A DNA stretch of 64,000 nt from the NCBI GenBank assembly GCA_041675145.1, contig JBAYUK010000001.1:220057-284056 (forward strand), in the 5' to 3' direction. This document shows, piece after piece, positions 4,179-26,665 of the stretch. Position 1 is the first letter of the stretch; the number at the start of each line of letters is the position of its first letter. Below the pieces are notes generated by a model that saw nothing but the letters and a program-made list of their open reading frames with translations, was not told the DNA's origin and did not search any database. Made by a program: the position numbers and the translations under genes. This DNA is from Patescibacteria group bacterium (lineage in GTDB: Bacteria; Patescibacteriota; JACPGU01).

Positions 4179-4223
4179 GTTAATTATATAAATTACTAAT
4201 ATTATGAGAACAGCTCATGCGAG

Positions 4224-4631
4224 CTATTTTTTACGATAAAGGTTCTTGCGTCGTTCCTGCGCCTGGTCTGCAATACTACGGGCAATTGTTCTCAGTACTG
4301 CCTTGAGCCCTAGAACTATCCAGACAATTGCCATGATGATCCAGGCTGCAAAAAGTGCCCGCATACTAAAGTATGGAATACCCTGCAGTCTAAAGAATAC
4401 TAGGAGAAGACCAACAAGACCTACCCATAGCCCCCAGTTAGCAAGATATGCGTACAAAGGACGGTAGACAGACTTTCTTTTCTTATATGCAAGAAAAGCA
4501 GTTACTATAGCCAATAATACCAGAACTGAGAAAAAAATCAAGAAAAAGGGTGCAGACGTAAAATAATACCCAGGTTCTGGGTTAAAGATATACGTCGGTG
4601 TAAAGAGGAGTTTCAAGCTCGTACTATTCAT
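4224..4631 (-). CDS. Hypothetical membrane protein
   Basis: Three or four predicted TM helices, basic C-terminus. Confidence 0.5.
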   Translation of the reverse strand: MNSTSLKLLFTPTYIFNPEPGYYFTSAPFFLIFFSVLVLLAIVTAFLAYKKRKSVYRPLYAYLANWGLWVGLVGLLLVFFRLQGIPYFSMRALFAAWIIMAIVWIVLGLKAVLRTIARSIADQAQERRKNLYRKK

Positions 4632-18240: not shown

Positions 18241-19752
18241 TTATTCTACCACTATTTTTTCTTTGATGCGTAGTGCAAGAGATCTACCCACCACTGCTTC
18301 TAGTTGTGGTATCGTAGCTCCTGCTATACCACGAACCGACCCGAACTCTTTTATCAGCTTGCGTCGAGTTGCTGGACCAATACCTAAAACCTCATCAAGA
18401 GAGGAAGTGATGTTGCGTTCACGGCGTAACTTTTTGTGGAAAGTGATCGCAAACCGATGTGCTTCATCTCGAATATTTTGTACAAAATATCCCTCTGGAC
18501 TATCTTTTGATATATCCGCACGCGCAAACTGTAGCTTCTTGATATCTATCCCCCAGACTTCCTCATCACGCTTCGCAAGTCCCACGAGTGGGATATTAAT
18601 ATGTTCTTTTTGGAACAGCTGCCAGATGGTTGAAAGCTGTGGCTTGCCACCATCCAAGATTATGAGATCGGGGTTTCTCCATGGTTTCTTATCGTGGCCA
18701 GTAAGGTGTCCTAAGCGACGAGTGAGCACTTCTTTCATCATCGCAAAGTCGTTTACTCCTTTTACGGTCTTAATCTTAAACTTCCTGTACTCTCTTTTAT
18801 CCATCTTTCCATCTTGCCAGACCACCATACTCCCTACTGGTTCTGCTCCTTGAATATTACTCATATCATAAAGCTCGATACGAAACTTTCCAGATGATAA
18901 TATGGCATACCCAAAAGCTGAATTAATCTTAGCTATGACAGATTGCAAAACATCGGAATCTACTTTAGGAACGCTTTGTTGTTCCTTTACCTTATGTACG
19001 CTTTTATCCCTTACCTTGCCCAAGTGAAGTAACCCTTCTACTTTGTCTCGTACTCTTGCTGCCCCTTCGAAATCTTTCTTTTTAGATAACCTACTCATGT
19101 CTTTCTTTAAACCGCTTACCAAGCTCTCTTTCTTACCTTCAAGGAAGGTAACCAACTGCATTAAGTCCTTCTTATATTCCACCTCTGAGATGTATCCGCC
19201 ACACACCCCGCGACAAAACGCTATATGGTAGTCAAAACACGGACGGTGCTTTTTACGATGCAACTCTACCTGATGGGGAGTCAACTCACACCACTTAAAT
19301 ATTTTTCTTAAAGTCCTCATGCCGTCCTTGAGTAACCCAGCATCAGTATATGGTCCAAATATTTTTATCTTAGTATCTTTACTAGATCCAACTACCTGAC
19401 GAATAAACTCAGGACGAGGAAACTGCTCATGGAAATCTATTTTGATGTATAGAAAAGATTTATCATCTTTAATCTTTATGTTATAGCGAGGAAGATGCTT
19501 TTTAATGAGTTGGGATTCTAAAATTAACGCCTCCATCTCGGATGGAGTCTCGATCCATTTAAGATCAGCAATTAAGGAGACTAAAACATGGGTCTTAGGA
19601 TCATGATCTTTCTTTTGAAAGTAAGAGTTAACACGCTTTTTCAAGTCTTTCGCTTTACCGACATAGAGCAACTTTCCTTTCACATCAAAATACTGGTAAC
19701 AACCAGGGGATGTGGGAACTAGTTTCAGTTTGTCTGCAAGGTGTTGAGTCAT
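18241..19752 (-). CDS. uvrC: Excinuclease ABC subunit C
   Basis: N-terminal GIY-YIG (PGCYQYFDVKGKLLYVGKAKDLKKRVNSYF), C-terminal HhH. Confidence 0.85.
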   Translation of the reverse strand: MTQHLADKLKLVPTSPGCYQYFDVKGKLLYVGKAKDLKKRVNSYFQKKDHDPKTHVLVSLIADLKWIETPSEMEALILESQLIKKHLPRYNIKIKDDKSFLYIKIDFHEQFPRPEFIRQVVGSSKDTKIKIFGPYTDAGLLKDGMRTLRKIFKWCELTPHQVELHRKKHRPCFDYHIAFCRGVCGGYISEVEYKKDLMQLVTFLEGKKESLVSGLKKDMSRLSKKKDFEGAARVRDKVEGLLHLGKVRDKSVHKVKEQQSVPKVDSDVLQSVIAKINSAFGYAILSSGKFRIELYDMSNIQGAEPVGSMVVWQDGKMDKREYRKFKIKTVKGVNDFAMMKEVLTRRLGHLTGHDKKPWRNPDLIILDGGKPQLSTIWQLFQKEHINIPLVGLAKRDEEVWGIDIKKLQFARADISKDSPEGYFVQNIRDEAHRFAITFHKKLRRERNITSSLDEVLGIGPATRRKLIKEFGSVRGIAGATIPQLEAVVGRSLALRIKEKIVVE

Positions 19753-19785: not shown

Positions 19786-20079
19786 TCATTCAAAGAAATA
19801 CGAGTGGCTACCGATATCAATAAGTATTAAAATTAACTGACTTCTGTCAGTTCTGTATAGCAGTAATACATCACTGCGTATGTGACATTCACGAAATTCT
19901 TGCATATCGCCCTTGAGTTGGTGGTCACGATACTTGCTTGCCAGCTTTTCCCCACGAGCGATCGTACGGATAATATCATTGAGTTCATCTAGTGCCTGTT
20001 GATACTTTCCTGATCGACAAATCTTATTATATGCCTTAACAAATCTTTTTGTTTTAATTTGTTGGTACATCTCAGACAC
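19786..20079 (-). CDS. yafQ: Type II toxin YafQ-like (RelE/ParE superfamily)
   Basis: HQLKGDMQEFRECHIRSDVLLLYRTD...GSHS. 8-bp overlap with the upstream antitoxin. Confidence 0.7.
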   Translation of the reverse strand: MSEMYQQIKTKRFVKAYNKICRSGKYQQALDELNDIIRTIARGEKLASKYRDHQLKGDMQEFRECHIRSDVLLLYRTDRSQLILILIDIGSHSYFFE

Positions 20080-20347
20080 CTAAATCCTTAATAAACTCTT
20101 CAACATCAGTATATACCTTTCCCTCTCGTAATGTCTCCTCGACCTCTTTCTTTAAACGCACAGCAAGCGCTTTTTGCTCAGCCCTAGAAGTAGGCTTTCG
20201 AGAGGGCAAAAAAGGCAAGGCCTGATCATGTACCGCCTGCTGAAAGAACACTTTAATTGCAGTAGACATGTCCATCCCTAGGCCAGCAAAGGTTTTTTGC
20301 GCCTCTTTTTTCAGCGATTCATCAATACGAACATTGAGAGTGGTCAT
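20072..20347 (-). CDS. dinJ: Type II antitoxin DinJ/RelB family
   Basis: MTTLNVRIDESLKKEAQKTFAGLGMDMSTAIKVFFQQAV. Confidence 0.7.
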   Translation of the reverse strand: MTTLNVRIDESLKKEAQKTFAGLGMDMSTAIKVFFQQAVHDQALPFLPSRKPTSRAEQKALAVRLKKEVEETLREGKVYTDVEEFIKDLGV

Positions 20348-20413
20348 AGTAGTAATTTAGTAATATATACATTGTAATTACGAAGTCGTTACCTGTCAAC
20401 ACTAAGTCTCCAC

Positions 20414-21486
20414 CTATTCATACCACATGTTCTCGATTTTTTGACCGAGTTCAAAGGTATCTGCATGGCTTAGGACTCCTCGGTACGACTGCATTGTTTG
20501 CAGTAGCTTTTTCTCAACTATCTTTCCGTTTCTATACTCATCCAACTTGTGTCGAATATTTCTAATAATTCGTTGTCGTGTCTTACTTCGAACGAGTCTG
20601 TGGGTCGGAAACACTACATACCCTAGAAAATCTATTCCTTGAGAAAACTTACGAATACTGGTCTTATGCGGGTGAAGTGTGAGTCGCAACTGGTTATGTA
20701 AGAAGCTATTTAGTACTGGGGTTAGCTCCATAAGATACGCCTGGCTATCTGAGACAATCACGAAGTCATCGGTATAGCGCACATAGTTCTTGATACGCAA
20801 GGTATGTTTCACAAACTGATCAAATTCATTCATGTAGATATTGGCGAACAACTGAGATGTGAGGTTTCCAATAGGTATACCTGTTTTTCGGGAGCCCTCC
20901 TTACTCTCTCTCTCTCTCTCTCTCTCTCGAAGGTGCCTACCTGAAGGCTATAGCTTTGGATAATATTCTGGATCAACTGAAGAGCCCGCAAATCAGTGAT
21001 GCGTTTCGAGATAATATCAAATAAGATGTCATGATCGACTGAATCAAAGAATTTACGAACATCACATTTTAGAGCAAAGCATGGGCGAGTGTTGTTACGC
21101 GATACTGAACGCAACATATTCTCAAGAACCGCTACTCCCCGGTGAGTGCCAAAACCTATGCGACAAGAAAAAGATGTGGCTATAAATGTCGGTTCAAAGA
21201 TAGAGTTTAAAACTCTAAACAACGCGTGATGCACTACCCGATCCCGAACTTGAGCTTTATGAATATGTCGCTGTTTGGGATCCTGGATATAAAATCCTTG
21301 ATAAGGCCCGTGCTGATAAGTTTCGCTTTTAAGCTCGCTATAAAGGGCAAATAAGTTTTGCTCTATATCTTTTTCAAAAGCTATCACATCTTCCTTGTGC
21401 CTCTTATCATGTCGGAATTCTTCCCATGATAGAAAGAGATTTGGTACTGAAATAATGGTATGATAGATTTTGGAAAATTTCTGCAT
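20414..21486 (-). pseudogene. DGR reverse transcriptase, interrupted by a +1/-2 frameshift inside a (TC)12 tract
   Basis: N-terminal segment (frame of 20830-21501) has RT motifs 1-3 (FALKCDVRKFFDSVDH). C-terminal frame reads ...GIPIGNLTSQLFANIYMNEF...YVRYTDDFVI (DGR-specific I/LGxxxSQ plus YxDD). The two frames meet in the GA/TC repeat. Confidence 0.8.
20904..20928. repeat. Dinucleotide microsatellite (CT)12C on plus, (GA) on the coding strand, inside the RT gene
   Basis: ttaCTCTCTCTCTCTCTCTCTCTCTCTCga counted directly. Confidence 0.95.
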
Positions 21487-21508
21487 ACTAATAATATACA
21501 ATATCCCA

Positions 21509-21856
21509 ATGGACCACTTCGATATACCCTTATTTAAAAAGTCATACGACCTGTATAAAACACTGTATGGGTACCGTCTTGCTGTACCAAAACTAGATCG
21601 CTATGGTATCTGGCAAAAGACCGAGAATACCTTACTAGAAGTAATCGAACACGTACTCCTTGCAAGTCAAAAAGCAAAACAAGAAAAGATCTCCCATCTA
21701 GAACAAGCAAGCTCAAGCCTGAACCTTCTTCGTGTTTTTATCCGCCTCATGAAAGACACGAAGGCACTGGACATGAAAAAGTACCTCATACTAGAAGTAG
21801 CCATTGAAGAGATAGGCCGCATGCTTGGTGGCTGGATAAAGTCTACAAAAGAATAA
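21509..21856 (+). CDS. avd: DGR accessory variability determinant (Avd), four-helix-bundle family
   Basis: MDHFDIPLFKKSYDLYK... and C-terminal LEVAIEEIGRMLGGWIKSTKE resemble Bordetella bAvd (..IAEVGRILGSWI..). ATG at 21509. Alternative TTG at 21470. Confidence 0.7.
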   Translation: MDHFDIPLFKKSYDLYKTLYGYRLAVPKLDRYGIWQKTENTLLEVIEHVLLASQKAKQEKISHLEQASSSLNLLRVFIRLMKDTKALDMKKYLILEVAIEEIGRMLGGWIKSTKE

Positions 21857-21881
21857 ATACCCACTAAGAGTGGGTATTTAT
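21856..21881 (+). terminator. Hairpin terminator directly after the avd stop
   Basis: atacccact-aag-agtgggtat then ttat. Confidence 0.5.
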
Positions 21882-21901
21882 AACCTGTTCTAGGCGAGAT
21901 G

Positions 21902-22019
21902 ACTTCCGGGAGGACGACACGCCCACATTGTCGTTGCGGTTACTGTCCCAGTTGTTGTTGACATTGAGACCGTCGCCATCAAAGCTGCCAATGTTGACAT
22001 GGTTGCCGTCCGAATCGAT
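21902..22019 (-). repeat. DGR template repeat (TR)
   Basis: 118 bp collinear with 22368-22485. 15 mismatches, all at plus-strand T (= A in the minus-sense TR). Encodes an Asn-rich peptide (NHVNIGSFDGDGLNVNNNWDSNRNDN). Confidence 0.85.
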
Positions 22020-22271
22020 AATTGCCTTTCTCCATCCGTTGTGTTTCACTAGAAATCGAGACGTTTACCGCACTGCTTATCTCTTTTTCCTGTATCTTTT
22101 TTGGGGGCTTACTCCACCAGAGAGAGGCAAGAAGTTCGATCTCTATCCTTTTTTGCACACTACCGTCATCCTTAGATAACGATACTCCGGCATCCCAGGC
22201 GAGATATCTCGTGAGTTTAAACCGTAATCCAAACTACATGAACGAGATACTCATACTATATAAGAATTCAA

Positions 22272-22309
22272 AGTAAAAGAAAATGCCGACAGCTAAAGCT
22301 GCCGGCATT
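22272..22309 (-). terminator. Rho-independent terminator of the DGR target gene
   Basis: atgccgacagc-taaa-gctgccggcat followed by a T-run on the minus strand. Confidence 0.5.
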
Positions 22310-22335
22310 GCAAAAAGGGTTCAAAAGTAAAAGTA

Positions 22336-23151
22336 TTAGGGGTTCAAGGACTCAAGAGCCTTCGTAAACTTCCGGGAGGACGACACGCCCACATCGTCGC
22401 CGCGGTAACTGCCCCAGTAGCTGTCGACATCGAGACCGCCGCCATCAAAGCTGCCAATGCGGACAAGGCTGCCGCCCGAATCGATGGAAGCCGTCCTGGC
22501 ATAGAGCTTCATAAAGATCCGCTCCCCAGTGGCCAAGAAATGGCCGATGATGGTATACACCATCACCTGAGCGGTGGGAACTTCTTCGAGCTCCTTGTCC
22601 AGAAGCTCACCTTGCTCGCTCCAGTTTTTAGCAAGCGATCCTGGCACCTCGTCCTTGCGGACCAAGTACCACCCAACGGTTCCTTTTTCTTGAGCAAAAG
22701 CCTGGGAATTGTACCAGGCATCCTCATGCCGATAGAAGAGCGCTCTCTCGACTCTGGACCTTATATCCAGAATGGAGAGCGGAAAAACAGCCACGAGAAT
22801 GTGGGTTGTCTTACACGCACGCAACTCCTCTTCAGAGTACGGCACTTCTTCCAGAGTCTGCAACTCTTCAAGGGTAGGAGTAATGCCGAAGTGTTTTGTG
22901 GCCTCTTCCACCCCGAAGTAGTTGCTTCCCATAATCCTGCGTGCCTTCACCTGGGATTGTGAGGACTTGCTCGTCATGGCAATGAATTCGACAGCCCTTC
23001 GGGCAGCCTCACCCATCATTTCCTGGAAAATATCACTGTTGACGACTGCCAACTGTGCGTTTTCCTTGCTCGTTTCTGCCAAGCCTTGCTTGGCGCCGAT
23101 CTCGGCCAACTGACCGAGTTTGTCTTTCTGTCCGGATGTGATCAATTTCAT
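22336..23151 (-). CDS. DGR target (variable) protein with C-terminal VR
   Basis: C-terminus ...IDSGGSLVRIGSFDGGGLDVDSYWGSYRGDDVGVSSSRKF aligns with the TR-encoded peptide. AAGGAGG RBS. Confidence 0.8.
   Translation of the reverse strand: MKLITSGQKDKLGQLAEIGAKQGLAETSKENAQLAVVNSDIFQEMMGEAARRAVEFIAMTSKSSQSQVKARRIMGSNYFGVEEATKHFGITPTLEELQTLEEVPYSEEELRACKTTHILVAVFPLSILDIRSRVERALFYRHEDAWYNSQAFAQEKGTVGWYLVRKDEVPGSLAKNWSEQGELLDKELEEVPTAQVMVYTIIGHFLATGERIFMKLYARTASIDSGGSLVRIGSFDGGGLDVDSYWGSYRGDDVGVSSSRKFTKALESLNP
22368..22485 (-). repeat. DGR variable repeat (VR) at the 3' end of the target gene
   Basis: Offset +466 from the TR, no indels. 3'-proximal 27 nt (plus 22368-22394) identical to the TR and GC-rich (IMH-like). 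Confidence 0.85.
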
Positions 23152-23201
23152 GTCATCATCCTCCTTTGTAATCTCCCATCCGAGGTAGTGTGAGTACTTT
23201 C

Positions 23202-23250
23202 AGACGAGGGAACTGCTTACCTTCAATACCAGGCAGGCAACTCCCTCATC
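23202..23250 (-). promoter_or_regulatory. 15-bp stem-loop in the 5' leader of the DGR target mRNA
   Basis: Minus-sense AGAUGAGGGAGUUGC-19 nt-GCAGUUCCCUCGUCU, fully paired with 3 G-U wobbles. Lies 35 nt upstream of the RBS. Confidence 0.45.
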
Positions 23251-23284
23251 TGAAATAGGTTAGTTTTCAAAGATCAATTTCTAT

Positions 23285-23313
23285 ATTTTATCACATTTTA
23301 TACTAAAAAGCAA
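23285..23313 (-). promoter_or_regulatory. Putative promoter of the target gene (TTGCTT-N17-TAAAAT on the minus strand)
   Basis: Reverse-complement reading of 23285-23313. Confidence 0.4.
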
Positions 23314-23452: not shown

Positions 23453-23971
23453 CTAAAATACACTCTCTTCTGCTATTTTTTGCCTAATATCACCATCATC
23501 TAAATATACAAAATATTTATTAGATAACTTCTTATAAAGTGAGGATCTAAACCTTCTATTTGGAAATAATATTTTTTCTAGTCTTTCTTCCTCAACAAGA
23601 AAATCGATTAACATTTTGTAGTCCCCATCTCCAGAAACTAACACGATTTTCCCGAAATCTTCTCGTCTATATATTCGTACCATAATGTTGAAGATAATAT
23701 CAGAATCAACATTCCCCTTCTTGGTGCCGAGCATAGCAGCGTTATGTTGACGAAAAACTAAAATAAAACCTGCGAGTTGTATCTCTTCATATAAATCCTG
23801 ATATTGTTCTTGGACATAGCCTAAATAGTAATATGCCTGAGTAACGCCATATTTCTTTTCAAGATATACACGAAAACGAGCTAGATCAATATTCCAAGGA
23901 GGATCGATTTTGGCTGTACCCATATATAGATTCTGTCCATCAATAAACGCATAGTTGTTTTGTTTTTGCAT
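23453..23971 (-). CDS. NYN-domain (LabA-like) protein, predicted RNase
   Basis: YAFIDGQNLY ... VLVSGDGDY signature. Confidence 0.75.
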   Translation of the reverse strand: MQKQNNYAFIDGQNLYMGTAKIDPPWNIDLARFRVYLEKKYGVTQAYYYLGYVQEQYQDLYEEIQLAGFILVFRQHNAAMLGTKKGNVDSDIIFNIMVRIYRREDFGKIVLVSGDGDYKMLIDFLVEEERLEKILFPNRRFRSSLYKKLSNKYFVYLDDGDIRQKIAEESVF

Positions 23972-23981
23972 TGTGATTAAG

Positions 23982-25985
23982 TTATTTCTTTTTTGTTTTA
24001 CCTTCGCGGCGTCTCACCGTCTCCAGCTCAAATATATGATCCCTGATATCTGCTGCTTTTTCAAACTCGAGGTTACGAGCAGCCAAGTCCATCTTTTTTT
24101 CCATATCTCTTACCATCTGGCGGAATTGTTTTTCCGGTAGAGCTTCAATATCTACCGGTAGACCGTCGATTCTCTTTTTCTCCTCACCCTTAGCACTTCT
24201 CCAGTCACCATCCTCAGACACCGCCTTATCTATTGTATGTGGCGTAATCCCATGCTTGGTATTGTATGCTTCCTGGATCGTGCGGCGACGATTCGTCTCG
24301 TCGATAGCCATCTGCATAGAACCCGTAATACTATCTGCATACATAATTACTTTTCCATCCACATTACGAGCTGCTCGTCCCATGATCTGGACAAAGGCCG
24401 AGTAGGAACGCAGAAACCCTTCTTTATCTGCATCTAAAATTGCCACCAGCGACACCTCTGGTAAGTCGAGTCCTTCACGCAGGAGGTTAATACCGATCAA
24501 ACAGTCATAGCGCCCGAGTCGCAGGTCGCGCAAGATGTCCAAGCGATCGAGTGTATCCACATCTGAGTGCATGTAAGCTGCCTTAATACCCAACTCTTGC
24601 AAGTAAAGTGAGATGCGCTCGGCCAGCTTTTTGGTAAGGGTTGTGATTAAGATGCGCTGTCCCCTGGCAGTACGCTCCCGAATCTGTTCAATCAAGTCAT
24701 CGATCTGGTTGGTAGTAGGTTTTATTTCAATAACTGGGTCAACTAGGCCAGTTGGACGAATAATTTGCTCAACAACCTGGATACTTTTCTCTATCTCGTA
24801 GGGAGCTGGAGTAGCTGAGACATACACTATCTGCTTTTGCCGTGCATCAAACTCATCAAAAGTAAGTGGTCGATTATCTCGAGCAGAGGGCAGGCGGAAA
24901 CCAAAATCTACTAGATTTTGCTTACGAGCTGCATCTCCGTTATACATACCCCGTACCTGCGGTACGGTCATGTGAGACTCATCAATAAACGTTAAGAAGT
25001 CTTTTGGAAAGAAGTCTATTAGTGTCGACGGGGGAGAGCCCGGCGTACGACCAGATAAGTGCCGGGCATAGTTTTCAATACCATTCACATACCCTACTTC
25101 TTTGAGCATCTCAAGATCGTAGTTTACTTTCTGCTCTATTCGCTGCGCCTCGATCAACTTGTCGTGCTTTTTGAAATACTCAATGCGTTCTTTGAGTTCC
25201 TCGTAAATACTTTTCTCAGCTCGTGCGATACTATCTGCTGTAGTCATAAAGATCTTAGCCGGGTAGATCGTAAAATCGGTAAGCTTTTCCATCACTGATC
25301 CCGTAATAGGGCTGACCACTCCAATGGAGTCTATTTCTGAACCAAAGAACTCCACCCGAATAACATTCTCCTCATAGGCAGGAATAACCTCTACAGTGTC
25401 TCCCCGTACTCTAAAACGACCGCGAGCAAGCTCCATATCATTTCTTTCGTAAAGGTTGGCGATTAGAAAGTTCAGGAACGCTTCACGGGTCATCTTACCG
25501 CCTTTTTCTATTTTAAAAGAAGCATTGAGGTACTCCTCCGGTTCTCCGAGACCATATATACATGAAACAGAGGCAACAATGATCACATCCCGACGCGTTA
25601 AAAGTGCGTGAGTAGCAGCATGACGCAAGCGGTCTATCTCATCGTTAATTGATGTCTCTTTTTCTATATAGGTATCTGTCTTGGGGATATATGCTTCTGG
25701 CTGGTAGTAGTCGTAATATGAGACAAAGTAGTGTACGGCATTGTCTGGAAAAAAAGCCTTAAACTCTGAGGCAAGCTGGGCAGCTAAAGTCTTGTTGTGG
25801 GCGAGTACCAAAGTCGGACGATTCTGAGCTGCTATGATATTTGCCATAGTAAAGGTCTTACCAGAGCCTGTGACACCTAAAAGCGTCTGGTCGCGATACC
25901 CAGACTCAACTCCTGATAGTAGTTTTTTAATAGCCTCCGGCTGATCTCCTTGTGGCTGAAATGGGGAAACAAGATTAAAGGACAT
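23982..25985 (-). CDS. uvrB: Excinuclease ABC subunit B
   Basis: [14 protein letters not shown]...[15 protein letters not shown]... full-length helicase and UVR domain. Confidence 0.9.
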
Positions 25986-25991
25986 GTAGAA

Positions 25992-26246
25992 CTATTTATT
26001 ATAAACATCTCTCCTGTGCCCAGCTTTTAGCACAATAATACACTCACCCACAATGTCAAAAAAAACACGGTAGTCGCCAATACGAAACTTAAATGTACCA
26101 AGCTCAGGATCAAGTAATCTCTCGGCGTGCCGGTAAGGATCAGCCAGATTCCGAACAAGCGTTTTGTCTATTCTTTTCCGAACTACAAAATCAAGTTTCT
26201 GTATTTGCTTGAGAGCTCTATTTGTATACTGATATTCGTATGCCAT
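25992..26246 (-). CDS. Type II toxin, RelE/ParE family
   Basis: FKFRIGDYRVFFDIVGECIIVLKAGHRRDVY. Confidence 0.7.
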   Translation of the reverse strand: MAYEYQYTNRALKQIQKLDFVVRKRIDKTLVRNLADPYRHAERLLDPELGTFKFRIGDYRVFFDIVGECIIVLKAGHRRDVYNK

Positions 26247-26251
26247 AAGAC

Positions 26252-26497
26252 CTACCCAAAAACCTCTTCGTGAGAATGCAACTTACCTTGCTTTGCCTCA
26301 AGGCGAGCGGCACGAATATCCGCAAGAAATTCTGGTGAAGACAGCGCCAACAGATCCTCAAAATAGTCCAGATTAATCAAAGCTGAGACTGCTTTTCCTT
26401 TATTGGTGATTACGAAGTACTTCTCTTTTTCGTTTACCAAACGAATAGCATCTGCAATGTTATCACGAAACGCCGATGTGGTAAGTGTTTTTTCCAT
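26252..26497 (-). CDS. Type II antitoxin, Phd/YefM family
   Basis: MEKTLTTSAFRDNIADAIRLVNEKEKYFVITNKGKAVSALINLDYFEDLL. Confidence 0.7.
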   Translation of the reverse strand: MEKTLTTSAFRDNIADAIRLVNEKEKYFVITNKGKAVSALINLDYFEDLLALSSPEFLADIRAARLEAKQGKLHSHEEVFG

Positions 26498-26513
26498 ATA
26501 ATGAAATTTAATA

Positions 26514-26545
26514 GTACAAATTAATTGTACAACAGATTCGTACAA
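26514..26545 (-). promoter_or_regulatory. Three GTACAA (TTGTAC on the coding strand) direct repeats upstream of phd, candidate TA operator
   Basis: gtacaa at 26514, 26526 and 26540, spacing 12 and 14. Confidence 0.4.
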
Positions 26546-26665
26546 TGTCAACTATAAGATTGATCACACCTGTTTCTCTCTCTTATTATAGAAGCACCAG
26601 CAGATAATCAACATCCATATCATATGGTATATGTCAAGTATATTTAATGAATATATAGAATATAT

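What the first reader, a model, noticed from the sequence alone, without database searches (positions are those of the whole stretch)
21902..22485. TR/VR pair shows strictly adenine-specific substitutions and a conserved GC-rich IMH-like 3' end
TR (21902-22019) and VR (22368-22485) align without indels at a constant offset of 466 bp. All 15 differences are plus-strand T in the TR versus C, A or G in the VR, which is A to N in the minus-sense template. This is the hallmark of mutagenic retrohoming. The 27 nt at the 3' end in gene orientation (plus 21902-21928 and 22368-22394, ACTTCCGGGAGGACGACACGCCCACAT) are identical and GC-rich, consistent with an IMH. The TR encodes an Asn-rich (AAC codon) peptide, the classic way to maximise codon variability. 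Homology stops at 22019/22485, where the next four TR positions (aatt) read ggaa in the VR, a change not explained by adenine mutagenesis.
Basis: seen in the sequence. Interest (0 to 1): 0.75.

Follow-up and report, generated by a model that had tools for sequence, protein, structure and literature searches.

The report
Protein diversifier with slippery on/off switch
The repeat pair is a genuine diversity-generating retroelement of a tiny groundwater-type (Patescibacteria) bacterium. Its reverse transcriptase gene is broken here by a slippery (GA)n tract that changes length between near-identical genomes and may act as an on/off switch for the mutator.

Summary
TR 21902-22019 and VR 22368-22485 align without gaps at offset 466. 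All 15 differences fall on template adenines (P about 8e-11), and all 31 TR adenines sit at codon positions 1 or 2.

The surroundings complete a diversity-generating retroelement (DGR):
- a 271-aa target whose model has a C-type-lectin fold;
- an oppositely oriented avd gene;
- a reverse transcriptase (RT) most similar to Bordetella phage bRT, with the IGNLTSQ signature.

This TR-(avd)-RT layout is the known "B3" architecture of Candidate Phyla Radiation (CPR) DGRs, so the DGR itself is an ordinary new member.

The unexpected part is the RT gene. It is split at a pure (GA)12.5 tract (20904-20928). Two other assemblies of the same genome differ from the window over 20.8 kb at only two sites: this tract (23 nt, RT intact) and one adenine site in the VR.

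A frame-blind metagenome scan found such tracts in about 120 distinct RT lineages. Among 73 scorable loci, 59 are out of frame, and one GA unit restores every one. Tract length varies between near-identical genomes in four lineages. Lineages with short tracts or none are stable.

Best reading: slipped-strand switching gates the DGR. I found no published report of this.

The parts
22336..23151 (-). Target (variable-protein) gene of 271 aa. It belongs to a large family of roughly 255-aa Patescibacteria proteins with no Pfam domain. The model shows a C-type-lectin/FGE-like fold.
22368..22485 (-). Variable region (VR), the last 39 codons but 11 of the target gene.
   Evidence: 118 nt with 15 differences from the TR, all at TR adenines.
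22439..22439 (-). VR position that differs between assemblies of the same genome. The window has G (Gly238). L001 and L002 have A (Asp), which is the TR base. Its TR partner 21973 is an adenine site.
   Evidence: It is the only substitution in 20.8 kb.
22368..22394 (-). IMH-like 3' block of the VR. It is identical to the 3' end of the TR, is 63% G+C, and contains 3 unmutated adenines.
   Evidence: Its function is inferred from the BPP-1 model (PMC5758913).
22346..22362 (-). Small imperfect hairpin starting 6 nt after the VR. It is a weak candidate for the post-IMH inverted repeat.
   Evidence: It is weak and was not tested for conservation.
22282..22309 (-). Terminator-like hairpin (12-bp stem plus T-run) after the target gene.
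21902..22019 (-). Template region (TR). It is non-coding in situ, Asn/Asp-rich in the VR frame, and holds 31 adenines, all at codon positions 1 or 2.
21853..21881 (.). 13-bp hairpin followed by a T-run on the minus strand, starting 21 nt after the TR 3' end and directly after the avd stop codon. It probably ends the TR RNA and may also end the convergent avd transcript.
   Evidence: A terminator-like hairpin plus T-run lies within 80 nt after the TR in 65 of 91 related loci.
21509..21856 (+). avd (accessory variability determinant, 115 aa from the ATG). It lies on the strand opposite to TR, RT and target, between TR and RT.
   Evidence: PF22296 bAvd E 4.9e-18. NF033474 DivGenRetAVD 79.1 bits against a cut-off of 80. 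The same opposite-upstream position occurs in 101 of 114 related loci. This is the B3 architecture (PMC5758913).
20414..21486 (-). DGR reverse transcriptase gene, frame-broken in this assembly. The N-terminal part reads from 21486 to a stop at 20830 (218 aa from the ATG). The C-terminal part, in the -1 frame, is open from inside the tract to 20414.
   Evidence: RVT_1 halves. Frames shown. The repaired protein matches the 8ub7-series RT at E 1.6e-44, against 2.6e-20 for group II intron RTs. It carries IGNLTSQ, which fits [I/V/L]GxxxSQ, and conserves the equivalents of bRT R74 and I181.
20904..20928 (-). Pure (GA)12.5 simple sequence repeat inside the RT gene, between KCDVRKFFDS and GIPIGNLTSQ. 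It encodes an (ER)n surface loop. The window has 25 nt (out of frame). Sister assemblies have 23 nt (in frame, 356 aa).
   Evidence: It is the only dinucleotide tract in the window. Comparison with L001 and L002. The loop is absent from the 8ub7 chain. It is the only segment with pLDDT below 50 in the model of homologue P0035. Census. Within-lineage length variation.

Best explanation
The locus is a chromosomal diversity-generating retroelement (DGR) of the Patescibacteria/CPR type, with the order target(VR)-TR-(avd, inverted)-RT.

Mechanism, inferred by homology to the Bordetella phage system:
1. The TR is transcribed as a short RNA that probably ends at the hairpin just downstream.
2. The RT-Avd complex copies it into cDNA and misincorporates opposite adenines.
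3. The cDNA replaces the VR. The shared GC-rich 3' block fixes the 3' boundary.
4. This recodes about 15-20 surface residues at the C-terminal end of a C-type-lectin-fold protein.

On top of this, the RT gene carries a pure (GA)n tract in a disordered surface loop. One repeat unit is 2 nt, so each slippage step moves the gene between one in-frame and two out-of-frame states. In this window the tract is one unit too long and the RT is off. In two other assemblies of the same genome it is in frame.

I propose that slipped-strand mispairing at this tract is a heritable, reversible on/off switch for the diversifier, with most cells kept off.

Shown: the TR/VR adenine pattern, the gene set, the fold, the frame break, and tract-length polymorphism between near-identical genomes.
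Inferred: retrohoming itself, the reversibility rate, and any adaptive value of the switch.
For: DGR identity:
- 15 of 15 mismatches fall on TR adenines, P 8e-11, and no adenine is at a third codon position.
- An Avd homologue is present.
- The RT is closest to the 8ub7-series RT and has the IGNLTSQ signature.
- The target model has a CLec fold and matches TvpA, Mtd and TaqVP.
- The architecture is shared by 101 of 114 related loci.
- Adenine-only TR/VR pairs occur in about 90 related loci.
- The layout equals architecture B3, which accounts for 90% of CPR DGRs (PMC5758913).

Recent or ongoing activity:
- The only substitution in 20.8 kb between assemblies of this genome is at a VR adenine site.
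- The same holds for the one recurrent substitution in the P0311 lineage.

The switch:
- The tract is the only dinucleotide SSR in 64 kb.
- The window has 25 nt (off); L001 and L002 have 23 nt (on).
- Of 73 scorable loci, 14 are in frame, 29 are +1 and 30 are +2. Both halves are otherwise open.
- All 59 off loci become one full ORF after adding or removing one GA unit.
- Off loci keep clean adenine-only TR/VR pairs.
- Within-lineage lengths: 68/52/46/41+14 (interrupted)/36 nt in loci 99.5-99.7% identical by BLAST with the tract gap counted, differing by 1-4 substitutions plus the tract; 27 versus 25 nt recurring in 4 and 3 assemblies; L134 versus L137.
- Controls: a 15-nt tract is invariant in 5 samples, and a tract-less RT is intact in 9 assemblies.
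- The loop is disordered in the model and is missing from the 8ub7 chain.
- Tract-bearing RTs are only 44% identical at the median and interleave with tract-less ones.
- Other lineages carry (GT)n, (CT)n or (GA)n tracts at the avd/RT 5' ends.
Against: - No reads, transcripts or proteins were available. Switching within one population, its rate and its reversibility are therefore not observed directly.
- The window-versus-L001 difference is a single repeat unit, which on its own could be an assembly or PCR-stutter artefact.
- In-frame alleles are rarer (19%) than the 33% expected from free slippage (P about 0.006-0.009, uncorrected for relatedness). This fits selection for OFF but was not predicted beforehand.
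- The VR differences between assemblies are single sites. A whole-VR re-randomisation, as expected from one complete retrohoming event, was not seen.
- Slippage on (GA)n at the RNA or ribosome level could make the genomic frame partly irrelevant.
- Absence of a published report was checked only in the held library.
Confidence: 0.72

Rival explanations
1. Recoding rather than switching. RNA polymerase or the ribosome slips by 2 nt on the (GA)n tract, since tRNA-Glu on GAG re-pairs perfectly after a 2-nt shift. Every genomic frame would then yield a little full-length RT. The tract would be an expression attenuator, and the DNA frame would be nearly neutral.
For: The +1 and +2 frames are equally common (29 versus 30), as expected if the frame is not selected. 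GA repeats contain no stop codon in any frame. Off alleles persist in all 7 assemblies of the P0344 lineage, yet that lineage keeps both RT halves intact.
Against: Nothing here tests RNA or protein. The DNA tract clearly changes length between near-identical genomes, so DNA-level switching occurs regardless. In-frame alleles are depleted rather than at one third. Efficient 2-nt slippage on dinucleotide repeats is not an established mechanism (my own knowledge).
Confidence: 0.17
2. Technical artefact. The extra GA unit in the window is an assembly or amplification error, the RT is really intact, and the element is a plain constitutive DGR.
For: Two other assemblies of the same genome give 23 nt and an intact 356-aa RT. 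Dinucleotide repeats are prone to stutter.
Against: 59 of 73 independent metagenome loci are out of frame at the same tract. Length differences of 16-32 nt occur between near-identical loci. The 27-nt and 25-nt alleles each recur in several samples and assemblers. Tract-less and short-tract lineages are never broken.
Confidence: 0.07
3. Decay. The DGR of this genome is a dying element, with the RT becoming a pseudogene and the VR frozen.
For: The RT is frame-shifted in the window. An orphan target homologue without any RT nearby is identical in 12 contigs, which shows that frozen copies exist in the family.
Against: There is only one lesion, and both RT halves are complete. avd and TR are intact. 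TR/VR show zero non-adenine differences. A sister assembly is in frame. The same single-lesion pattern occurs across lineages that are only about 44% identical, which decay cannot maintain.
Confidence: 0.04

Closest known systems
Bordetella phage BPP-1 DGR (mtd-avd-TR-brt), the prototype
   Same: TR/VR pair with adenine-specific changes. VR at the 3' end of a CLec-fold target. Avd present. The RT is the closest solved relative (8ub7-series chain, E 1.6e-44), with the [I/V/L]GxxxSQ motif and conserved R74/I181 equivalents. There is a GC-rich shared 3' block.
   Different: The element is chromosomal in a Patescibacteria genome, not on a phage. avd is inverted and lies between TR and RT. IMH and IMH* are identical over 27 nt. 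The RT has an insertion of about 20 residues that bRT lacks, encoded by the (GA)n tract. The TR is followed closely by a terminator-like hairpin.
CPR/Patescibacteria DGRs: architecture B3 'TR-(avd)-RT' of Wu et al. 2018 (PMC5758913); DGR clade 2 of Roux et al. 2021 (PMC8144416)
   Same: Same gene order and orientation. Same host group (names). The target has no recognisable sequence domain, as reported for clade 2.
   Different: Neither paper, as far as I could search, mentions a repeat tract or frame-shifted RTs. The survey in PMC5758913 compiled 'putatively functional' DGRs, which may have excluded out-of-frame alleles.
Simple-sequence-repeat contingency loci, e.g. Helicobacter pylori outer-membrane genes with repeat tracts in promoter and coding region (sabA, PMC2715451)
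   Same: A perfect dinucleotide tract inside a coding region. One unit changes the frame. Length is polymorphic between near-identical genomes. Both on and off alleles occur in one lineage.
   Different: The switched gene is not a surface antigen or a restriction-modification enzyme. It is the enzyme of a targeted hypermutation system. The tract sits mid-gene in a tolerated loop rather than near the 5' end. The host is an uncultivated environmental bacterium.
Treponema denticola TvpA, Thermus TaqVP and Mtd variable proteins
   Same: The fold of the target model is a CLec/FGE-like scaffold with the variable residues at the C-terminal end.
   Different: Sequence identity to these DGR variable proteins is 8-18%. 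There is no sequence-level match to any solved structure. The VR is shorter (39 codons), and the N-terminal helical domain is different and poorly modelled.

Membership tests
Diversity-generating retroelement (DGR) | TR/VR near-repeat whose differences are confined to adenines of the template | tested here: met
   15 of 15 at adenines, P 8e-11.
Diversity-generating retroelement (DGR) | VR inside (usually at the 3' end of) a protein-coding target, with TR adenines at codon positions 1 and 2 | tested here: met
   The VR is in frame with the 271-aa ORF. Adenines at codon positions: 14 at position 1, 17 at position 2, 0 at position 3.
Diversity-generating retroelement (DGR) | RT of the DGR clade with the signature [I/V/L]GxxxSQ | tested here: met
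   IGNLTSQ is present. The best PDB relative is the 8ub7-series RT at E 1.6e-44, against 2.6e-20 for group II RTs. Motif definition from PMC7826257. NCBIfam has no DGR-RT model, and other RT models score below their cut-offs.
Diversity-generating retroelement (DGR) | Intact RT open reading frame | tested here: not met
   The window is split into a 223-aa ORF (218 aa from the ATG) and a 145-aa ORF at the GA tract. The feature is met in sister assemblies L001 and L002, which have 356 aa.
Diversity-generating retroelement (DGR) | Accessory protein Avd | tested here: met
   PF22296 at 66 bits against a cut-off of 40. NF033474 at 79.1 bits against a cut-off of 80, just below.
Diversity-generating retroelement (DGR) | Target with a C-type-lectin (or Ig) fold displaying the VR | tested here: met
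Diversity-generating retroelement (DGR) | IMH at the VR 3' end, distinguished from IMH* of the TR, plus a downstream inverted repeat | tested here: inconclusive
   The 27-nt GC-rich block is identical in TR and VR. Only a weak hairpin follows the VR. Identical IMH/IMH* pairs and missing inverted repeats are both known among DGRs. Function cannot be tested in silico.
Diversity-generating retroelement (DGR) | Ongoing mutagenic retrohoming (population VR variation at adenine sites) | tested here: inconclusive
   One VR adenine site differs between assemblies and is the sole substitution in 20.8 kb. There is one comparable case in the P0311 lineage. No read data were available.
SSR contingency (phase-variable) locus | Perfect short tandem repeat placed so that a one-unit change shifts the reading frame | tested here: met
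   (GA)12.5 lies inside the RT gene. All 59 off loci are restored by adding or removing one unit.
SSR contingency (phase-variable) locus | Repeat-number polymorphism between otherwise near-identical genomes, with both on and off states | tested here: met
   Window lineage: 25 versus 23 nt. P0311 lineage: 68 nt (on) versus 52, 46, 41+14 (interrupted) and 36 nt. P0344 lineage: 27 versus 25 nt. L134 versus L137. Stable controls.
SSR contingency (phase-variable) locus | High-frequency reversible switching within a clonal population, with a phenotypic consequence | not testable with these tools
   This needs reads, cultures or expression assays.

The most novel reading that the evidence does not exclude
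CPR bacteria may place their targeted hypermutation machine under a second-order stochastic switch. A hypervariable (GA)n tract in a disordered RT loop keeps the DGR genetically OFF in most cells and turns it ON in rare slippage variants. Protein diversification would then come in bursts in a subpopulation. In other lineages the tract is (GT)n, (CT)n or (GA)n in the overlapping avd/RT 5' ends, or at the avd 3' end. The recurrence of SSRs at three different positions in these cassettes suggests repeated selection for this control.
Probability: 0.5. Interest if true: 0.8.

Novelty: new variant of a known kind. Interest (0 to 1): 0.66.

Why it matters
How DGR activity is regulated in cells is largely unknown, and uncontrolled reverse-transcriptase-driven mutagenesis should be costly.

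If a repeat tract gates the RT, three things follow.
- It would be a simple, heritable and reversible control of targeted hypermutation, in one of the most DGR-rich groups of organisms.
- Many CPR DGRs scored as inactive or discarded as pseudogenes would be explained, because surveys that demand an intact RT ORF would miss most alleles.
- The idea is directly testable with data that already exist: tract-length and VR-variant frequencies in metagenomic reads and time series.

For engineering, an (ER)n-tolerant loop in a DGR RT is a natural insertion site and switch. The DGR itself adds one more member to a known class.

Tried and rejected
- Searched the window for further VR copies with adenine positions masked. 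None found.
- Rfam at gathering threshold over the whole window, and at permissive E-value over 20300-23300. Only tRNAs and one chance lncRNA hit.
- Classical -1 or +1 programmed frameshifting as a general solution. Rejected because the +1 and +2 states are equally frequent. In the window the only candidate slippery stretch (CGAAAAAC) does not fit the X XXY YYZ rule in the zero frame (my reading).
- Re-initiation after the TAA that follows the tract (TAAGGAGG looks like a ribosome-binding site). No start codon follows in the C-terminal frame, and the motif is not conserved in other lineages.
- The same GA-tract-plus-motif pattern in IMG/VR viral contigs. Zero hits.
- Exact look-ups of the window's target protein and RT N-terminal product. 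Not on record.
- Avd look-up for more assemblies of this genome. Only the two already known.
- P0151 turned out to be an orphan target copy without a DGR.
- The P0360 lineage has a split RT region without any SSR. Not pursued.
- Protein similarity between avd and the ORF over 22022-22276, to explain the extra short repeat. None.
- Literature searches for SSR, phase variation or frameshift in DGR RTs. Nothing found. Paul et al. 2017 is not held.
Full report
**1. The observation**

Plus-strand 21902-22019 and 22368-22485 form a 118-nt direct repeat with no gaps at offset 466. The 15 mismatches are all T in the first copy, against C (11), A (3) or G (1) in the second. On the minus strand, which is the coding sense, these are A-to-G, A-to-T and A-to-C changes.

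With 31 T among 118 positions, the chance that all 15 hit T is 8.3e-11. The 27-nt 3' block occurs exactly twice in the window, with none expected by chance.

In the frame of the ORF that contains the second copy, the first copy reads IDSDGNHVNIGSFDGDGLNVNNNWDSNRNDNVGVSSSRK. That is 7 AAC and 2 AAT codons. All 31 adenines sit at codon positions 1 or 2. Every element of the finding is confirmed.

**2. What surrounds it**

On the minus strand the order is as follows.
- A 271-aa ORF (22336-23151) ends with the VR.
- A terminator-like hairpin follows (22282-22309).
- Then comes the TR (21902-22019).
- A 13-bp hairpin with a T-run follows the TR (21853-21881).
- A 115-aa gene lies on the opposite strand (21509-21856).
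- An RT gene follows (21486-20414).

The opposite-strand gene is Avd (PF22296 E 4.9e-18; NF033474 79.1 bits against a cut-off of 80).

The RT halves both match RVT_1. The repaired protein is far closer to the 8ub7-series reverse transcriptase (E 1.6e-44) than to group II intron RTs (2.6e-20). I identify that PDB series as Bordetella phage bRT from memory; the depositors' name is only 'Reverse transcriptase'. The RT has IGNLTSQ, which fits the DGR signature [I/V/L]GxxxSQ. It also conserves the residues equivalent to bRT R74 and I181, which promote adenine mutagenesis (PMC7826257).

The host is a Patescibacteria MAG. The target equals NCBI MFA7308708.1. The element lies between uvrB and uvrC.

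**3. Relatives**

Eighty species-representative genomes and about 120 metagenome contigs carrying related RTs were fetched. avd sits inverted and immediately upstream of the RT in 101 of 114 loci with enough sequence. Roughly 90 loci contain a TR/VR pair with almost exclusively adenine mismatches, at the same spacing. A terminator-like hairpin plus T-run follows the TR within 80 nt in 65 of 91 loci.

This is architecture B3, 'TR-(avd)-RT', of Wu et al., reported for 90% of CPR DGRs (PMC5758913). It is probably also the Patescibacteria-restricted clade 2 of Roux et al. (PMC8144416). Identical IMH and IMH* blocks are also already described.

**4. The RT gene is broken at a (GA)n tract**

The RT is read as two ORFs. 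The break lies at a pure 25-nt GA tract (20904-20928), the only dinucleotide repeat in the 64-kb window. Removing one GA unit gives a 356-aa RT.

Two other assemblies of the same genome were compared with the window: ENA ERZ27247358 (377 kb, L001) and Logan SRR6484325 (L002). Over 20.8 kb and 8.4 kb respectively they differ at exactly two places.
- The tract is 23 nt, and the RT is called as an intact 356-aa protein.
- Window position 22439 in the VR is G in the window and A in the other two. Its TR partner is an adenine.

So the only two polymorphisms in this genomic region are the two places where a hypermutable mechanism is expected.

**5. The tract is widespread and usually out of frame**

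In-frame RT homologues at 54-63% identity often show RERERE(S) at the same place (16 of 26 aligned; 34 of the best 120).

A DNA pattern blind to reading frame was scanned over metagenome contigs: (GA)6, a gap of 3-33 nt, then the degenerate P(I/L)GNLTSQ codons. These hold 121 tract instances and form about 115 distinct clusters at 95% identity. Tracts are pure GA and 12-51 nt long.

Among the 73 loci where both RT halves are fully present, 14 are in frame, 29 are shifted by +1 and 30 by +2. In every one of the 59 shifted loci, both halves are otherwise open, and adding or removing a single GA unit recreates one full-length ORF.

The shifted loci still have clean adenine-only TR/VR pairs. The equal use of both shifted frames argues against a dedicated -1 or +1 ribosomal frameshift site.

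In-frame alleles are fewer than the one third expected from random slippage (binomial P 0.006 one-sided, 0.009 two-sided). This is not corrected for relatedness.

Tract-bearing RTs are very diverse (median 44% and minimum 27% identity in the C-terminal half). They interleave with tract-less ones on a neighbour-joining tree, which requires at least 20 changes of state. No match was found in viral contigs.

**6. The tract changes length between near-identical genomes**

Identical Avd proteins were used as handles to fetch several assemblies per lineage.
- P0311 lineage: six samples of one project have loci 99.5-99.7% identical by BLAST with the tract gap counted, differing by 1-4 substitutions plus the tract. 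Tracts are 68 nt (RT intact, 372 aa), 52, 46, 36 and 41+14 nt (interrupted). All but the first are shifted, and two contigs break inside the tract. The one substitution shared by several samples is again a VR adenine site.
- P0344 lineage: 27 nt in four assemblies and 25 nt in three, both shifted.
- L134 and L137 have 100% identical flanks and differ only at the tract.
- Controls: a 15-nt tract is invariant and in frame in five samples. A tract-less RT is intact in nine assemblies.

Long tracts vary and short ones are stable, which is the normal behaviour of simple sequence repeats. Differences of 16-32 nt, and alleles that recur across samples and assemblers, are not sequencing stutter.

**7. 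Where the tract sits in the protein**

The tract encodes alternating Glu-Arg in any frame and contains no stop codon. It lies between KCDVRKFFDS and GIPIGNLTSQ. The 8ub7 chain has a gap of about 20 residues there. In the AlphaFold model of the in-frame homologue P0035 (pLDDT 85), the only segment below pLDDT 50 is 181-198, TGFTRERERERESKNAPK. The loop should therefore tolerate any in-frame length.

**8. Other repeats in these cassettes**

In the 597 kb of species-representative loci, 13 dinucleotide repeats of 13 nt or more exist, and 12 lie inside DGR cassettes.
- Three are in the RT loop.
- Eight are in the very short divergent avd/RT 5' region. These are (GT)n in L035, L039, L041 and L045, (CT)n in L036, and (GA)n in L058, L059 and L079. 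Several lie inside the N-terminal codons of avd and/or RT.
- One is at the avd 3' end next to the TR (L030).

This recurrence at different positions is the main reason I think the repeats are selected for, rather than merely tolerated.

**9. Interpretation and limits**

The best explanation is a B3-type CPR DGR whose RT is gated by slipped-strand changes of a coding (GA)n tract. The window shows the OFF state.

Retrohoming and its steps are inferred from the Bordetella system. The DNA-level length polymorphism and frame states are shown. Rate, reversibility within a population, and benefit are all inferred.

The main rival is slippage at the RNA or ribosome level, which would make all frames leaky. 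I could not test it. Assembly error could explain the single-unit difference in this genome, but not the wider pattern. Decay is contradicted by the single, always-repairable lesion across deeply diverged lineages.

The VR differences between assemblies are single sites. That fits consensus flips in a heterogeneous population better than one complete retrohoming event. This remains unexplained.

I found no paper in the held library describing repeat tracts or phase variation in DGR RT genes. One key CPR paper is not held, so the novelty claim is provisional.

**10. Verdict**

- The DGR is a new member of a known kind.
- The repeat-gated RT is, to my knowledge, a new variant of that kind.
- The idea can be tested with public read data.

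Noticed in passing
window 21771-21793 and 22236-22258: A second short match lies almost collinear with TR/VR: 18 of 23 identical at offset 465, against 466 for TR/VR. One copy is inside the avd 3' part and the other is in the target-TR spacer. None of 2000 flank shuffles reached this score within +/-1 of the offset. It may be a relic of a larger ancestral duplication. There is no protein-level similarity.
   Followed up: partly
L035 3962-3974; L039 857-873; L041 3931-3949; L045 3951-3969; L036 849-869; L058 1237-1257; L059 2523-2539; L079 3966-3986: Other CPR DGR lineages carry (GT)n, (CT)n or (GA)n tracts of 13-21 nt in the tiny divergent avd/RT 5' region. These often lie inside the first codons of avd (HTHTHT, SLSLSL, RERERE) and sometimes of the RT too. 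One tract could then shift both genes.
   Followed up: partly
L030 2568-2594: In a Peribacteraceae MAG with a rearranged cassette, a 27-nt GA tract sits at the 3' end of avd, 24 nt from the TR, instead of in the RT loop. Its length would change the Avd C-terminal tail.
   Followed up: partly
window 19786-20347 and 25992-26551: Two type II toxin-antitoxin pairs flank the region: RelB/YafQ directly downstream of the RT, and Phd/ParE beyond uvrB. The DGR is wedged between uvrB (23982-25985) and uvrC (18241-19752).
   Followed up: no
window 23453-23971: A NYN-domain (predicted RNase) gene lies directly upstream of the target gene on the same strand (PF01936, E 6e-14). Whether it is linked to the DGR in relatives was not checked.
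   Followed up: no
L203-L211: A target-family homologue (P0151) sits between holA-like and DUF3048 genes with no RT, avd or TR nearby. It is identical in 12 contigs from different samples. It looks like an orphan, apparently frozen copy of the variable protein.
   Followed up: no
L213 2905-3023 (TR) and 4193-4311 (VR): In the P0311 lineage the target gene is inverted relative to TR and RT, yet it shows 14 adenine-specific differences plus one C/A difference in the 3' block.
   Followed up: partly
L223-L229: The P0360 lineage has an RT region called as two ORFs (151 aa plus 324 or 262 aa) without any simple repeat. This may be a true pseudogene or a different interruption.
   Followed up: no
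window 22336-22367: This target protein continues 11 codons past the VR (FTKALESLNP plus stop). Most family members stop right after the conserved ...SSARKF that the IMH-like block encodes.
   Followed up: no
L162 585-606 and 704-727: One 1.5-kb scaffold containing Ns holds two tract-plus-motif copies (21 and 23 nt) 120 nt apart, with different flanks. This is probably two alleles or paralogues joined by scaffolding.
   Followed up: no
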